A DNA stretch of 64,000 bases from the human T2T-CHM13v2.0 reference genome, Homo sapiens: NCBI RefSeq assembly GCF_009914755.1, contig NC_060932.1; one strand, written 5' to 3'. This document shows positions 30,421 to 43,664 of this stretch, piece by piece; position 1 is the stretch's first letter; each line of letters opens with the position of its first letter. Position numbers and translations under genes: made by a program. The notes below the pieces were generated by a model. That model was not told the DNA's origin. It made no database searches and saw only the letters and a program-made list of their open reading frames with translations.

Positions 30421-31497
30421 ATATTTCATCTTTAACTTGTGAGGCTTTTGTTGTTTTCTCAGCAGATCAAATATTTATTTGCTGATTCCCCCTACAGGCA
30501 CATTGAGTTGCCCAAAGATTAGACTGGGTCGCCCATGAGGTCTCAGTCATATTCTTCATTAGAAATTGTTTTTTTTTTTTTTTGGCCTCTAACAGAGAAA
30601 TGTGGGAGGAATGAGTTCCTAAATTGAATGTCAAAGTTCTTAGGTAACCCCTATACCCCCAATTCCCAAAAATAGTGTCTTGACAGCTGATGCATTAGAA
30701 GTTACAGTGTTTATTTTGTTTTCTTTCTTCCTTGTTTTCCCTTGAATATAGATGCCTAATGGTTCAGATGACACTTGGTCCCCCAAATTGTACAACACAC
30801 ATGAATCTAGTTCATGTTGTTTCATTGAAACACATGCTCAAAACTCTGTCCTGTGTATCATACACTCACCAAAGACAGACATGTAAAAGATATTTCTTAG
30901 AGTGGCCGTTGCAAATAGTAATCATGGTTTTGTTATTTCAATGGAATGCTATGTTCACCTTTCTTCACCTTTCTGTTCTGTATGTTATAAACTCTCCAAA
31001 CACAAAGGTATAAAATAAGTTTCTAAGCATGTTACTTGTGGGTATGAATCAAGACAGTGTTGTTTCAATAAAATACTGTGTTGACTCTGCTGCCTGTTTC
31101 ACACTGTCGAAATACACATGTATAAAAGATATTTCTAAGAATGCTAATTGGAGGAATACATTTTTTAGACATTAATATTTTATACAGCCCTTCCCATTGA
31201 TTTTTGCACCCCCCGCCCAGCCATCCATCCCAACCAGAATATTGCCCCTGACAGCGACAAAAGAAGACAGTACCTGATGGGGGGGCTTTGGTAGATGGGA
31301 CATCTACTCTACCAAAGGGTGGTCAAAGTAGGTTTGGCAGGAGAAGAAGGCACTTCCATGGTTTGACAGTCACCTGAGGCAGGGGTCCTAGGAACTGCAA
31401 AAGTATCTTCTTGAGGCATTATCTGCCACTATCCCTGCCGGCCCATCAGGAGGACCCATTGGCCCCTGGCATGTGTGTGTTATGTGCATATGCACTC

Positions 31498-33735
31498 TTT
31501 TTTTTTTTTGAGATGAAGTCTCACTCTGTTGCCCAGGCTGGAGTGCAGTGGTGCTATCTCAGCTCACTGCAACCTCCATCTCCCAGGTTCAAGCGATTCT
31601 CCTGCCTCAGCCTCCCAAGTAGCTGGGATTACAGGCGCATGCCACTACACCCAACTAATTTTTGTATTTTTAGCAGAGATGGGGTTTTGTCGTGTTGGCC
31701 AGGCTGGTCTCGAACTCCTGACCTCATGTGATCTGCCTGTCTCGGCCTCCCCAAGTGCTGGGATATACAGGCGTGAGCCACCGCGCCCAGCCTGCATATT
31801 TGTTTATCCTCTTTGTAAGTGGTGAAACCGTGCTTTCTGCAGGCACTGTAGATCTTCACCTGAGCCTGGCAACTCGAAGGCCTGCACTGATCACCAGGAC
31901 CAGTGCTGGCCGTGGAGCTGGGTCCTAGGCCCTAGGTTTTCTGAGCATCACTGCCAATCTTCAGGAGACTCATGCATGTGCAGCTCACTTCTGCCAGACC
32001 CATCTGCACCTGCACCTAAAGTGCTGCGTCAGCTTAGCCAGATCTCCAGATCCCCAGCTCATCAAACTATCCACCCCCTCCCTAAAGATATTTGTATCAG
32101 GATATTTCTAACAGTGCCACTTGTGTGAAAAGATCAGGTTTCAGTTGTTGCTTTGTAACACTGTTTTCATAGATCTGTGCTTCATGGTATCTGCTCTGTC
32201 AATATAGATGTATAAAAGAAGAGTCTTAGAATGTGATTTGCAAGAATGAATCAAGATCAGGTTATTTCCGGGAAAACCATATTGGGCACTCTGTGCTGCG
32301 TGCTCTACATGCTAATAAGCTATGTGTGAAAGTTGTGAATACGAATTCTTGATGTGAATATCAGTCAGGATGTGCAAATGCTCTGAAACACTGTGCCTCG
32401 GGTTACAGACAGTCTAATGACATAATGACATGTATAAACACATCTCCAAGAGTGCTCTAAGTGAGGTTTCTTTTTTTTTTTTTTTTTTTTTTTTTTTTTT
32501 TTTTTTTTTTGAGACAGAGGCTTGCTCTGTCACCCAGGCTGAAATGCAGTGGCGCAATCTCGGCTCACTGCAAGCTCCGCCTCCTGGGTTCATGCCATTC
32601 TCCTGCCTCAGCCTCTCGAGTAGCTGGAACTACAGGCGCCAGCCACCACGCCCGGGTAATTTTTTGTATTTTTAGTAGAGACAGGATTTCACTGTGTTAG
32701 CCAGGATTGTCTCGATCTCCTGACCTCGTGATCTGCCTGCCTCGGCCTCCCGAAGTGCTGGGATTACAGGTGTGAGCCACTGCGCCCGGCCCTAAGTGAG
32801 GTTTCTAAATGTAATTATGTGACTGCATGAAGATAGTGTTGTGTTTTGTTTCGTTTTGTTTTGTTTTTGAGATAGAGTCTTACTCTGTCCCCCAAGCTGG
32901 AGTACAGTGGCACGATCTTGGCTCACTGCCACCTCCACCTCCCGGGTTCAAGCGATTCTCCTGCCTCAGCCTCGTGAGTAACTGGGATTACAGGTGTGCA
33001 CCACCATGCCTGGCTAATTTTTTTGTATTTTTAGTAGAAATGGGGTTTCACTACATTGGCCAGGCTGGTTTTGAACTCCTGACCTCAAGTGATCCGCCCA
33101 CCTCAGCCTCCCAAAGTGCTGGGATTACAGGCGTGAGCCACCGTGCCTGGCCCGTTATCGTTATTTTGTGAAATACTATGTTTATCACACTGTGCTGCAT
33201 GTTATGTATTTTCTAAAAGAGACATCTGTTAAAGATATGTCTAATATGCTAGTTGTGTGTAGCATATTAGACACATCTATTTTTGTGAAACCCTATATTC
33301 ACCAATATAAAGATGCGTCTAATATGCTAATTAATCAGCATATTATTTTTTGTCTGAAAGATTTGTACTCACCAATCTCTACTGCATGTATACACTCCCC
33401 ATAGATGTGTGAGAGACGATTCTAAGGTTTTCTTTTTTGAGATGGAGTCTCGTTTTGTCACCCAGGCTGGAGTGCAGTGGCACAATCTTGGCTCGCTGCA
33501 ACCTCCACCTCCTGGGTTCAAGCAATTCTCCCTGCCTCAGCCTCCCAAGAAGCTGGGATTACAGGCACCCACCAAAATCCCCACCACCACACTGAGCTAA
33601 TTTTTTGTATTTTTAGTGGAGACAGGGTTTCGCCATGTTGGCCAGGCTTGTCTTGAACTCCTGACCTCAGGTGATCCATCTGCCTTGGCCTCCCAAAGTG
33701 CTGGGATTACAGGCGTGAGCCACCACGCCCAGCCA
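31498..33735 (-). mobile_element. Four Alus (31498-31792, 32468-32791 AluY, 32845-33152, 33428-33735)
   Basis: Full Alu bodies; TSDs ctaagtgaggtttc and taaggttt are visible. Confidence 0.9.
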
Positions 33736-34580
33736 TAAGGTTTCCTTTTACATGAACCAATCAAGACACCGTTCTTTCTGTATAATACTGGGTTCACCAC
33801 TCTGCTGTATGATATACACTCCCTAAAGAGACATGAGCAAAAGACGTTTATAAGAATGTTGGCTCCCGAATGAGTCAAGATAGTGTCACTTGTGTGAATC
33901 ACTCTCTTTAGCACTCAGAGGTGCATGTTATATGTTCTGTAAACAGACATGTTTAAAATATATTTCTAACAGTGTTTAGTAACACTACTCTAAAATCAGG
34001 ATAGTTTTATTCCTGTTACTTGTATAAATGAATCAGATAAATCAAGATAGTGTTATTTGTGTGAAACACAATGTTTACCACCTGTGATGTATGTTTTACA
34101 TGCACATATTAAAAATACATGTTTTTCTGTAAAGAAACATGTATAACATATGTTTGTAAGAATTCTTTTTCCTTAATGAATCAGGATACTGTTCTGTGTA
34201 ATACTGAGGACATTCTGTGCTTAGAGAGAGAGATATATAAAAGTTGTTTCTAAGATTGCTAGTTATGTGAACGAATCAGGATAGTGGTATTTTCGTGAAA
34301 CCCTACATTCACCGATTTGTACTTCAAATGTAAAAGATGATTGTAAGAAGGCTACTGGCCTGAATGAATCAGATTAGTCTCATTTCCTAGAATTGCTATG
34401 TCCAGCACCCTGAGTTGCATGTTATTCCTTCTTTAAAAAGATGTTTATAAGAATGCTTGCTCTGTGGATGAATGAGGACAGGGTTATTTCTGTGAAACAC
34501 TGTGTTCAACACATCAGTGCTGCAGACCCCGCCTCCAACACTGGGGATTATAATTCGACATGAGATTTGGTGGAGACACT

Positions 34581-42234: not shown

Positions 42235-42678
42235 CGTGGCCTTAAACTGCACGAGCACACTTACATGTGGATTTTCTTCTGTCTCTGCCACCCCTAGACA
42301 GCAAGACCCCCCGCAAGACAGCAAGACCCAACTCTCTTCTTTCTCTTCCTCCTCATCCTACTCAACATGAAGATGACAAGGATGAAGACCTTCATGATGG
42401 TCCACTTCACTTAATGAATAGTAAATAGTAAATTTTCTCTTCCTCATGATGTTTGAAATAATATTTTCTTTTCTCTAGCTTATTTTATTGTAACAATACA
42501 GTATACTATACACACACAAAATATGTGTTAATCAACTGTTTATGTTATTGGTAAGGCTTATGGTTAACAGTGGGCTCTTAATAGCTACACTGTGGTGGAG
42601 TCAAAAGTTATATACAGGGTCTCGACTGTCTGGGGGTTTGGTGCCCCTAATCTCTGCATTGTTCAAGGGACAACCACA
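42235..42678 (+). mobile_element. Tigger2a/MER28-type DNA transposon
   Basis: ctcaacatgaagatgacaaggatgaagacc... and TIR remnant ttgttcaagggacaac. Confidence 0.75.
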
Positions 42679-43664
42679 GTGTTATTTCTGTTAGACATGT
42701 GTCAGCACCCTATGCTGTTACTGTGACTTGCTATTTTTTTAAATCTCCCTTGTAACTGTAGGATAACTCTCTGTATAACTCTAGTGAATCCCCAGTAAGT
42801 GCAAATTAAAATGGTGACCTGTATCTTTAAAGAAAATTAAATCTTTATACATGCTCATGACATCTTGTGTTTTTCATAAACCATTAAGTATATCAGAAGG
42901 TTAGTCACATATTTGATGGCTTATGTATTAAATCTCTCAATCAGTAACCAGCAGAACAGGTTCTAGTCCTCACTCTGCCACTAACTAGCTGTTTCACCAG
43001 GAGTAAGTCACTCTGCTTGTTTGGATCTTCGTGTGTGAAGTGGGGAGTGTTAGGCAATAGAGCACTGCTGTGCCTTTCAGTGCCAACTTTCTCCAACTCA
43101 TTATGCATAAGCTACATCAGTATGTAGGTTTTATTTCTGTTCTGGAAACTACAGCCTTTATCTCTGTATTTATACCAATCGCTTAGGTTACAAGTTAATC
43201 AGAGCCACCACTGAATGAACGTGGTCTATACATTTGCCTAGTAGTCAGTTTATGCTTTTATTTACCTTTTGCCTGGAGCCCAGCTCATATGTGACGACAG
43301 AAAAAATTATGGCTGTTAGATGGAGGCTTCTCTGTGAGGAATAAGGAAAAGCAAAGGAAGAGATGAGGCCAGAAAGCAACTCGTGGCATTCACAAGGCAT
43401 TCGATGTTGCGCATCAGGACAGAGGCTTGCCAATAGACACTGGACGGGTTAAAAGAAAGTCCTAAAATGACATGTGTTTTCCTGTGTAGGGAGGTGTTTA
43501 CGCATGCATGTATAAGCAGGCACTTTCAAGAGCATATGTGCATGTCCAACTATTTTTCAAAGATATCTGTAATCCAGAAAATGTTTGGAGCCACTGACAT
43601 AATGGAATATACCATTGTTTTTCTTTCAGTCAATGAATTAACAGTCACAAATATGCTCTTTGGA

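What the first reader, a model, noticed from the sequence alone, without database searches (positions are those of the whole stretch)
30790..42720. Ancient degenerate ~117-bp tandem array over ~12 kb, older than an MLT1 provirus inserted in it
Seen: a ~115-120 bp unit (gaatgaatcaRgatagtgttatttctgtgaaacactgtgttcagcactctgtgctgcatgttatacactct..aaagacacatgtataaaagatgtttctaagaatgctagttgtgt) repeats head-to-tail in at least 8 blocks, roughly 30-40 copies, with high unit-to-unit divergence. The array resumes in register after insertions; for example ...gcaaaacacca|MLT1 LTR-int-LTR|cactgtattt... places a MaLR TSD inside the unit. MST, THE1, Tigger2, AluJ/S/Y and L1PA elements are also nested in it. 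Established: MLT1 elements are old eutherian-era insertions. Inference: this is a fossil satellite or macro-array that I cannot assign to any named human satellite, and it could easily be overlooked because it is so diverged and fragmented.
Basis: partly seen in the sequence, partly recalled or inferred. Interest (0 to 1): 0.85.

Follow-up and report, generated by a model that had tools for sequence, protein, structure and literature searches.

The report
Fossil 117-bp satellite family relic
This stretch of human chromosome 8 is the decayed remains of a very old 117-base tandem repeat, later broken up by mobile elements, and it is the largest found of at least 20 scattered relics of one ancient satellite-like family with no sign of a present function.

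Summary
A profile search finds 41 same-strand copies of a ~117-bp unit between 30,801 and 42,717. None appear in the reversed window. 24 of 40 junctions keep the 117-bp register to within 2 bp. About 4.1 kb (~35 units) is array. The rest is later insertions: 10 Alu-derived pieces, MaLR-type LTRs, a Tigger-like end and a 2.7-kb LTR-internal-LTR element. That element sits inside a unit, and its 5-bp target duplication falls on unit positions 32-36.

Units are 0.27 substitutions/site from their consensus and show no higher-order structure, so a once-uniform array decayed neutrally for roughly 100 Myr or more.

The array is not unique. The same unit was confirmed at 20 loci on 12 chromosomes, including ~5.8-kb arrays on chr7 and ~10 units on chrX. 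The loci share no flanks or fixed ends, and each large array has its own variants. That pattern fits satellite DNA better than a transposon's internal repeat.

No RNA family, conserved fold or long ORF was found.

Alpha satellite shares a 19/21 block with the unit. This is nominally unusual (about 0.2% of shuffles) but was found post hoc.

Whether Dfam/Repbase already holds this family could not be tested.

The parts
30790..31150 (+). array block 1 (3 units); left edge of the array
   Evidence: nhmmer hits 30801-30904, 30920-31031, 31044-31144, E 1e-16 to 1e-21; junction excess 0 bp
31151..32077 (.). non-array insert. 31151-31485 and about 31796-32077 are unidentified; an Alu lies at about 31490-31795
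   Evidence: junction excess 857 bp. Alu shown by 7SL matches 31508-31791. 31151-31485 has only itself as a match in the genome search
32078..32470 (+). array block 2 (about 3.3 units)
   Evidence: hits 32078-32455
32471..33151 (-). two Alu insertions (about 32471-32791 and about 32841-33151) with a ~35-bp piece of array between them (about 32806-32840)
   Evidence: 7SL matches; a 14-bp direct repeat flanks the first Alu (read); the array piece was read by eye and is not an nhmmer hit
33152..33427 (+). array block (about 2.4 units, with small deletions)
   Evidence: hits 33157-33244, 33278-33306, 33329-33427
33428..33739 (-). Alu insertion
   Evidence: 7SL matches 33437-33733; junction excess 313 bp
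33740..34525 (+). array block (about 6.5 units)
   Evidence: 7 hits 33758-34525, E 1e-9 to 1e-21
34526..35525 (+). MaLR-type LTR (MST/THE1-like; name recalled) that itself carries an insertion at about 34880-35430
   Evidence: 34580-34876 and 35435-35508 match one interspersed element in locus L022 8947-9311; junction excess 904 bp
35526..36309 (+). array block (about 6.7 units), ending at unit position 36
   Evidence: 8 hits 35526-36312; the last 3 bases of the final hit belong to the LTR (read)
36310..39039 (+). LTR-internal-LTR element (MLT1-like MaLR; name recalled) with Alu-derived insertions at about 38411-38546 and 38622-38951
   Evidence: 5' and 3' LTRs align at 36334-36538 / 38160-38374, 153 of 218 columns identical, E 1e-18. 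The LTR has 1824 first-look candidates in the genome; the 39 scored other than itself are 68-75% identical. 7SL matches. Target duplication on unit positions 32-36
39040..39171 (+). array block resuming at unit position 32
   Evidence: hits 39036-39111 and 39130-39168
39172..39819 (.). two Alu insertions (+ strand then - strand)
   Evidence: 7SL matches 39172-39462 (+) and 39524-39814 (-)
39820..40278 (+). array block (4 units)
   Evidence: hits 39850-40275, E 1e-12 to 1e-20
40279..41058 (-). L1-3'-end-like fragment with an A-run (by eye, recalled), then a reversed MaLR-type LTR carrying a partial Alu
   Evidence: 40398-40472 and 41004-41053 match L022 9313-8950 in reverse; 7SL match 40507-40654; junction excess 781 bp
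41059..41136 (+). array block (partial unit)
   Evidence: hit 41073-41136
41137..41443 (-). Alu insertion
   Evidence: 7SL matches 41152-41444
41444..42232 (+). array block (about 6.7 units)
   Evidence: 8 hits 41444-42232
42233..42677 (+). end of a Tigger-like DNA transposon (name recalled)
   Evidence: 3640 first-look candidates; the 39 scored other than itself are 74-82% identical, and most end at query base 440-442
42678..42717 (+). last recognisable array fragment; right edge of the array
   Evidence: hit 42671-42717, E 0.037; its first bases belong to the transposon end (read)

Best explanation
The region is a relic of an ancient satellite-type DNA family with a 117-bp, AT-rich monomer. 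In an early mammalian ancestor the monomer was amplified head-to-tail. Unequal exchange or replication slippage is the usual mechanism for this, so that step is inferred. The amplification gave arrays at several places in the genome, and each array was homogenised locally and acquired its own variants. Amplification then stopped. The chr8 array has since decayed as neutral DNA and has been split by at least 9 large insertion events. It has no detectable present function. Shown: tandem register, one strand, insertion order, dispersal, locus-specific variants, absence of shared flanks. Inferred: amplification mechanism, age in years, neutrality.
For: Register and strand: 41 hits, all on the + strand, and 24 of 40 junctions within +-2 bp of a 117-bp period. 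The reversed window gives 0 hits.

Uniform decay: among 29 full chr8 units, mean pairwise identity is 0.63-0.65 at every offset from 1 to 11, so there is no higher-order repeat. The best pair is only 77% identical. K2P distance to the consensus is 0.27 +- 0.06.

Older than its insertions: the two LTRs of the nested element are about 76% identical over ungapped columns (153 of 218 with gaps). Genome copies of that LTR are 68-75% identical to it. Array units are only 64% identical to each other. The element's 5-bp target duplication falls on unit positions 32-36.

Family: 20 loci were confirmed by the profile.

Locus-specific homogenisation: within-array identity is 0.639 (chr8) and 0.647 (chr7), against 0.584 between them. 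The nearest neighbour lies in the same locus for 42 of 59 units, against 17.7 on average (maximum 31) in 1000 label shuffles. The chr8 and chr7 consensus sequences differ at 20 of 107 positions, with strong majorities at positions such as 25, 31-35, 50-52, 61 and 73.

No carrier element: apart from Alus, other common repeats and one recent chr7 duplication, no flank homology links the loci. In 16 short loci the arrays start and end at varied unit positions.

No coding or RNA signal: Rfam finds only Alu/7SL-type matches. RNAalifold predicts 0 pairs on 27 units. The longest stop-free frame is 146 aa, and it lies in Alu sequence.
Against: Most of the other loci hold only 0.3-3 units and lie in chromosome arms. 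That is unusual for a classical satellite and is also what a mobile carrier would leave.

The copy number found is small, roughly 150 units in all. No heterochromatic or centromeric block of the family was seen.

Orthologous arrays in other mammals could not be examined, so the age rests on divergence and nesting alone. Divergence from the consensus would overstate the age if the array was never uniform.

The stretch 31151-31485 inside the array is single-copy and unexplained.

An exact 8-mer lag count on the joined array blocks is only weakly peaked: lag 116 has 9 pairs, but lag 78 has 11. Lags 105-125 hold 29 of 248 pairs.
Confidence: 0.7

Rival explanations
1. The 117-bp units are the internal tandem-repeat region of an ancient, low-copy transposable element. 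Transposition spread the arrays, and some expanded after insertion.
For: The family is dispersed over 12 chromosomes, mostly as 0.3-3 units. That is the pattern a mobile carrier leaves.
Against: The loci share no non-repeat flank, although units of the same age are readily detected at 70-80% identity by the same blastn settings. In 16 short loci the array ends fall at varied unit positions, with no common termini. The large arrays carry locus-specific variants. Sensitivity is limited: only 3-10 kb per locus was examined.
Confidence: 0.13
2. The array is a functional element, either a tandem cluster of small RNA genes or a repeated regulatory or binding-site array kept by selection.
For: Unit positions 86-103 are somewhat better kept in chr8 than the rest (0.751 against 0.693; rank 2 of 90 sliding windows). 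RefSeq lists a silencer and a cis-regulatory region inside the span (hub annotation supplied with the finding).
Against: Both RefSeq elements (37390-37684 and 38047-38601) lie in the nested LTR element, not in array units. There is no Rfam match in array units and no conserved structure (0 pairs). Decay is uniform at 0.27 substitutions per site, with frequent indels and truncated units. No exon is annotated there.
Confidence: 0.04
3. The array is a purely local tandem duplication unique to the ASAH1-NAT1 interval, as the first reader implicitly assumed.
For: A BLAST-type DNA search of the genome with 768 bp of the array returned only this locus.
Against: Pattern searches followed by profile confirmation found 19 further loci, including arrays with 41 and at least 31 profile hits at E<=1 on chr7.
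Confidence: 0.01

Closest known systems
Primate alpha satellite (171-bp monomer)
   Same: An AT-rich, head-to-tail monomeric tandem repeat in which each array acquires its own variants. The two share a 21-base block with 19 identical bases (unit positions 87-107 plus one linker base). Alpha monomers give weak, collinear, strand-specific profile alignments over unit positions about 22-106.
   Different: The monomer is 117 bp, not 171 bp. No higher-order repeats were seen. The loci found are mostly away from centromeric satellite. The family is far older and far less abundant. Outside the shared block the similarity is not above chance: 272 of 1000 shuffles reach the global score and 414 of 1000 the local score.
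Satellite families with short euchromatic arrays dispersed in chromosome arms (for example the Drosophila 1.688 family; seen only as a search listing and abstract start, PMC7642928)
   Same: One monomer family is present as a few longer arrays plus many very short arrays scattered on several chromosomes.
   Different: This family is a long-dead mammalian relic about 27% diverged from its consensus. No active or heterochromatic master array was found.
Tandem-repeat (VNTR) regions inside transposable elements, such as the SVA VNTR (passage read in PMC5753468)
   Same: Tandem units occur at many dispersed loci, with variable unit numbers.
   Different: No associated element body, fixed termini or shared flanks were found. 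Arrays reach about 35-40 units.
Unclassified ancient mammalian repeats in Repbase/Dfam (Eutr, EUTREP, MARE and others; Table 1 of PMC5753468, passage read)
   Same: Old, low-copy, non-coding repeats of eutherian or earlier age, with no assigned transposon class.
   Different: Membership could not be tested: no consensus library is available here. Those entries are described as interspersed repeats, whereas this one is strictly tandem.

Membership tests
Satellite DNA (tandem monomer family) | Head-to-tail monomers of constant length on one strand | tested here: met
   41 hits, all + strand; 24 of 40 junctions within +-2 bp of 117 bp
Satellite DNA (tandem monomer family) | Array-specific homogenisation (concerted evolution) | tested here: met
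   Within-array identity 0.64-0.65 against 0.58 between arrays. Nearest neighbour in the same locus for 42 of 59 units, against 17.7 in shuffles. 20 of 107 consensus differences between chr8 and chr7
Satellite DNA (tandem monomer family) | Long arrays or high copy number, often heterochromatic | tested here: inconclusive
   The largest arrays found are about 35 units (chr8) and about 5.8 kb (chr7). No large block was found, but the searches sample only units within 1-3 mismatches of 20-35-base patterns
Alpha satellite | Monomer of about 171 bp | tested here: not met
   The consensus unit is 117 bp
Alpha satellite | Sequence similarity along the monomer | tested here: not met
   Only a 19/21 block stands out (1 of 500 shuffles reach its score). 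The remainder is at chance level: 272 of 1000 shuffles. Family profile against the alpha consensus scores 6.3 bits, reached by 5 of 3000 shuffles
Transposon-internal tandem repeat | Conserved non-repeat element body or termini flanking the arrays at different loci | tested here: not met
   Only Alu and other common-repeat matches, plus one recent chr7 duplication
Transposon-internal tandem repeat | Arrays begin and end at fixed positions of the unit | tested here: not met
Curated Dfam/Repbase repeat family | Significant match to a library consensus or HMM | not testable with these tools
   No Dfam or Repbase library is available. Rfam, which holds RNA families only, has no match in the units
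MaLR (MLT1-type) LTR element, for the nested 36310-39039 insert | Two direct LTRs around an internal part, many dispersed old copies, and a 5-bp target duplication | tested here: met
   LTR pair aligned, E 1e-18. 1824 genome candidates at 68-75% identity. Flanking pentamers are 3 of 5 identical and both map to unit positions 32-36. The subfamily name is recalled, not tested

The most novel reading that the evidence does not exclude
The 117-bp family is a pre- or early-eutherian satellite whose scattered relics mark former heterochromatin, and it is a distant relative or partial source of primate alpha satellite. The two share their best-kept block (19 of 21 bases) and show weak collinear similarity over about 67 bp of the alpha monomer. 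If so, alpha satellite was seeded from an older mammalian satellite library and did not arise de novo.
Probability: 0.08. Interest if true: 0.8.

Novelty: new member of a known kind. Interest (0 to 1): 0.4.

Why it matters
Satellite DNA usually turns over too fast to leave old traces. A family that is still recognisable after roughly 100 Myr, with datable insertions nested in it, would be a rare fossil record of early mammalian tandem DNA.

If it is not yet in Dfam, a profile of it would annotate some tens of kilobases of unexplained human sequence that TRF-based catalogues miss (one search finds nothing).

The loci could be compared with ancestral karyotype reconstructions. The shared block with alpha satellite gives a concrete, testable lead on where alpha satellite came from.

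For the ASAH1-NAT1 interval itself the practical meaning is small. The array looks like inert DNA, and the annotated regulatory elements belong to the nested LTR element.

Tried and rejected
- TRF at minimum score 30 found no ~117-bp array.
- A BLAST-type genome search with 768 bp of the array found only the home locus. It is too insensitive for 60-65% identity.
I used patterns instead.
- Patterns of 33-47 bases with <=3 mismatches found nothing.
- Of the pattern hits that I profile-tested, these gave nothing beyond the pattern itself and were dropped as chance or uncertain: L006, L010, L012; L030, L041, L055, L056; L061, L064, L069, L074, L076, L077. L032, L038, L039, L046, L047, L051-L054 and L057 are alpha satellite.
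- The 20-mer search gave 2827 matches against 95 in the control. Only the first 100 were listed, so matches with 2 mismatches were mostly not examined.
- An RNA-gene cluster was rejected, and coding potential was rejected.
- Higher-order repeat structure was rejected.
- Literature: searches and a search for six unit strings in paper texts (0 papers) gave no description. Passages of the T2T repeat preprint do not mention this locus. Its supplements could not be read and might list it.
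Full report

Reading the region shows a recurring unit that begins with an AATGAATCA-like word. Tandem Repeats Finder reports no period near 117 in 28000-46000, even at minimum score 30, because the copies are too diverged.

I cut 10 units by hand, aligned them, built an nhmmer profile and iterated it three times on the window. 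This gave 42 hits at E<=1. Of these, 41 lie between 30801 and 42717, all on the + strand. The remaining hit (6152-6233, E=0.21) is probably chance.

At E<=0.01 the window has 37 hits, all on the + strand. The reversed window has none. A MAFFT alignment of 27 full units gives a 117-base majority consensus with 51% mean column identity.

**2. Register and nested insertions**

The 40 junctions between successive hits fall into three groups:
- 24 fit a 117-bp head-to-tail register within +-2 bp;
- 7 have small indels (-48 to +50 bp);
- 9 contain large insertions of 207-2616 bp.

The array proper is 11 blocks totalling 4136 bp, about 35 unit-equivalents, at 35.4% G+C. It has 45 CpG where 129 are expected.

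The inserted material is:
- ten Alu-derived pieces, recognised through Rfam 7SL matches;
- two copies, in opposite orientation, of one MaLR-type LTR family (both match locus L022 8947-9313);
- an L1-3'-end-like fragment, identified by eye;
- a Tigger-like transposon end at 42233-42677, with 3640 genome candidates; the 39 scored other than the query itself are 74-82% identical, mostly with a common end;
- a 2730-bp LTR-internal-LTR element at 36310-39039.

The names MLT1, MST/THE1, Tigger and L1 are recalled from memory of these families. No call tested them.

One insert, 31151-31485, has no other match in the genome and is unexplained.

**3. The array predates the LTR element**

The two LTRs align at 36334-36538 and 38160-38374. 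153 of 218 columns are identical, about 76% of ungapped columns, with E 1e-18. Other genome copies of this LTR are 68-75% identical to it, and the first look found 1824 candidates.

The sequence just before the element ends at unit position 36. The sequence just after it restarts at unit position 32. So unit positions 32-36 are present twice: 'cacca' upstream and 'cactg' downstream. The downstream copy equals the unit consensus, and the upstream copy differs by two transitions. This is the 5-bp target duplication expected of this element class (established knowledge, recalled), and it lies inside a unit.

**4. Age**

The 29 full chr8 units are 0.27 +- 0.06 substitutions per site (K2P) from their consensus. 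Mean pairwise identity is 0.63-0.65 at every offset from 1 to 11, and the best pair is only 77% identical. That is a star-like pattern: a once-uniform monomeric array with no higher-order repeat, followed by independent decay.

The LTR pair implies about 0.29 substitutions per site between the two LTRs, or about 0.15 per LTR (my Jukes-Cantor arithmetic). The array therefore looks nearly twice as old as the insertion.

With the commonly used mammalian neutral rate of about 2.2e-9 per site per year (recalled), the figures are roughly 120 Myr for the array and 65-70 Myr for the insertion. Slower primate rates give larger ages. These ages are inference. Divergence from a consensus overstates the age if the array was never uniform.

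**5. The unit is not confined to chr8**

A BLAST-type search of the assembly with 768 bp of the array found only the home locus. Short patterns with mismatches did better.
- A 25-mer with <=3 mismatches gave 9 matches against 2 in the control.
- A 35-mer with <=3 mismatches gave 6 against 0.
- A 20-mer with <=2 mismatches gave 2827 against 95, with only the first 100 listed.
- A 24-mer with <=3 mismatches gave 17 against 4.

I ran the profile over the fetched loci. Twenty loci are confirmed (T2T-CHM13 coordinates, Mb):
- chr2: 129.97 and 163.87
- chr4: 120.93
- chr5: 113.89 and 179.53
- chr6: 48.74 and 121.91
- chr7: 51.58, 55.77, 90.96 and 118.91
- chr8: this window
- chr9: 25.94
- chr12: 32.18 and 101.08
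- chr13: 30.46 and 31.91
- chr14: 39.84
- chr20: 46.11
- chrX: 47.06

The loci at chr4, chr7:118.91 and chr20 are single partial units with E of 1e-4 to 5e-4. The chr7:55.77 array has 41 profile hits at E<=1 over about 5.8 kb, and no unit was found in the 5 kb upstream of it. The chrX locus has about 10 hits.

The 20-mer found 15 loci and the 24-mer found 7. Four loci were found by both. A crude capture-recapture estimate is therefore about 26 loci. This is biased low, because the large arrays are the ones found twice.

**6. Satellite or transposon part?**

All-against-all blastn of 3-10 kb around the loci shows only Alu and other common-repeat matches. The single exception is chr7:51.58 against chr7:55.77, which are 96-99% identical over arrays and flanks and so form a recent segmental duplication.

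In 16 short loci the arrays begin at unit positions 6 to 80 and end at positions 56 to 107. No termini are shared.

The units cluster by locus:
- Identity is 0.639 within chr8 and 0.647 within chr7:55.77, against 0.584 between them.
- The nearest neighbour lies in the same locus for 42 of 59 full units, against a mean of 17.7 and a maximum of 31 in 1000 label shuffles.
- The chr8 and chr7 consensus sequences differ at 20 of 107 positions, with strong majorities. At position 25, for example, chr8 has T in 18 of 29 units and chr7 has A in 13 of 15.

The pooled consensus of the 15 units from the smaller loci sides with chr7 at 8 of the 20 sites. Several chr8 states are therefore private to this array.

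Local homogenisation with no carrier element is the signature of satellite DNA. The many very short dispersed arrays remain the main point in favour of a mobile carrier.

**7. Function**

Nothing points to a function. Rfam at E<=1 gives only Alu/7SL and Alu-derived miRNA-family matches, plus a few weak chance hits. RNAalifold predicts no pair on the 27-unit alignment. The longest stop-free frames, at most 146 aa, lie in Alus or the LTR element.

The RefSeq silencer (37390-37684) and cis-regulatory region (38047-38601) fall in the nested LTR element. Unit positions 86-103 are slightly better kept in chr8 (0.751 against 0.693; rank 2 of 90 windows), which is a small effect.

**8. An unexpected resemblance to alpha satellite**

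The 20-mer search mostly hit alpha satellite. I built an alpha profile from 9 fetched loci, giving 158 monomers, and took its consensus.

The unit and the alpha consensus share a 21-base block with 19 identities, on the same strand relative to the rest of the alignment. Only 1 of 500 dinucleotide shuffles reaches that local score. With the block removed, the remainders are not similar: 272 of 1000 shuffles reach the global score and 414 of 1000 the local score.

The family profile scores the alpha consensus at 6.3 bits, which 5 of 3000 shuffles reach. I then scored 128 alpha monomers, leaving out those that carried the ascertaining hit and those shorter than 150 bp:
- 96 of the 128 give a profile hit (mean 4.0 bits, maximum 15.6), commonly over unit positions 22-106;
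- 36 of 640 shuffled monomers give a hit (maximum 3.8 bits);
- 13 of 128 reversed monomers and 8 of 128 reverse-complemented monomers give a hit.

Three cautions apply. The monomers are all relatives of one another. Their loci were chosen by the pattern, and the top scorers carry that same variant. The comparison was also made post hoc. Scaled to the whole genome or to all repeat families, such scores are expected by chance.

I treat this as a lead, with about 8% probability of true homology.

**9. Known or new?**

No Dfam or Repbase library is available here, so this could not be tested.

Searches for a 117-bp ancient human tandem repeat, for multilocus tandem repeats, for ancient eutherian satellites and for decayed large-period repeats returned nothing that describes this family (listings and abstract starts only). 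A search for six unit strings in paper texts returned 0 papers. One search, on the origin of alpha satellite, returned nothing relevant.

In Kojima 2018 (PMC5753468) I read passages listing unclassified ancient repeats such as Eutr, EUTREP and MARE. The family could be among them. In the T2T repeat preprint (10.1101/2021.07.12.451456) I read passages only. None concerns this locus, and its supplements were not readable.

**Verdict**

This is a real and old feature: one relic of a dispersed 117-bp satellite-type family, most likely inert. It is moderately interesting as a fossil. It would be much more interesting only if the alpha-satellite link or a deep mammalian distribution were confirmed.

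Noticed in passing
L022 (chr7:55.769-55.776 Mb) and L045/L065 (chr7:51.582-51.588 Mb): Two arrays of the family about 4.2 Mb apart on chr7 are 96-99% identical over units and flanks (for example 1049 bp at 96.3%). This is a recent segmental duplication of an ancient array.
   Followed up: partly
L020 2639-3180 and 4449-5022 (chrX:47.056-47.058 Mb): The chrX locus shows the same series of five profile hits twice, about 1.8 kb apart. This suggests a later duplication of a block of units together with an Alu.
   Followed up: no
window 31151-31485 (and about 31796-32077): This sequence interrupts the array but has no other copy in the genome search, unlike every other insert. Its origin is unknown.
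   Followed up: partly
unit positions 87-107 plus one linker base, e.g. window 41812-41832; alpha-satellite loci L038, L039, L052: The best-kept block of the unit matches alpha satellite at 19 of 21 bases. This is nominally unusual (1 of 500 and 5 of 3000 shuffles) but was found post hoc.
   Followed up: yes
window 37390-37684 and 38047-38601: The RefSeq silencer and cis-regulatory region lie in the internal part and 3' LTR of the nested MaLR-type element, not in the tandem units.
   Followed up: partly
window 34526-34640: A ~55-bp piece resembling the tail of a MaLR LTR abuts the head of the LTR in a near-palindromic junction. The array register overlaps by about 17-20 unit positions across this insert, not the expected 5.
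   Followed up: no
window 6152-6233: The only profile hit outside the array is weak (E 0.21, 7.2 bits) and is probably chance.
   Followed up: no
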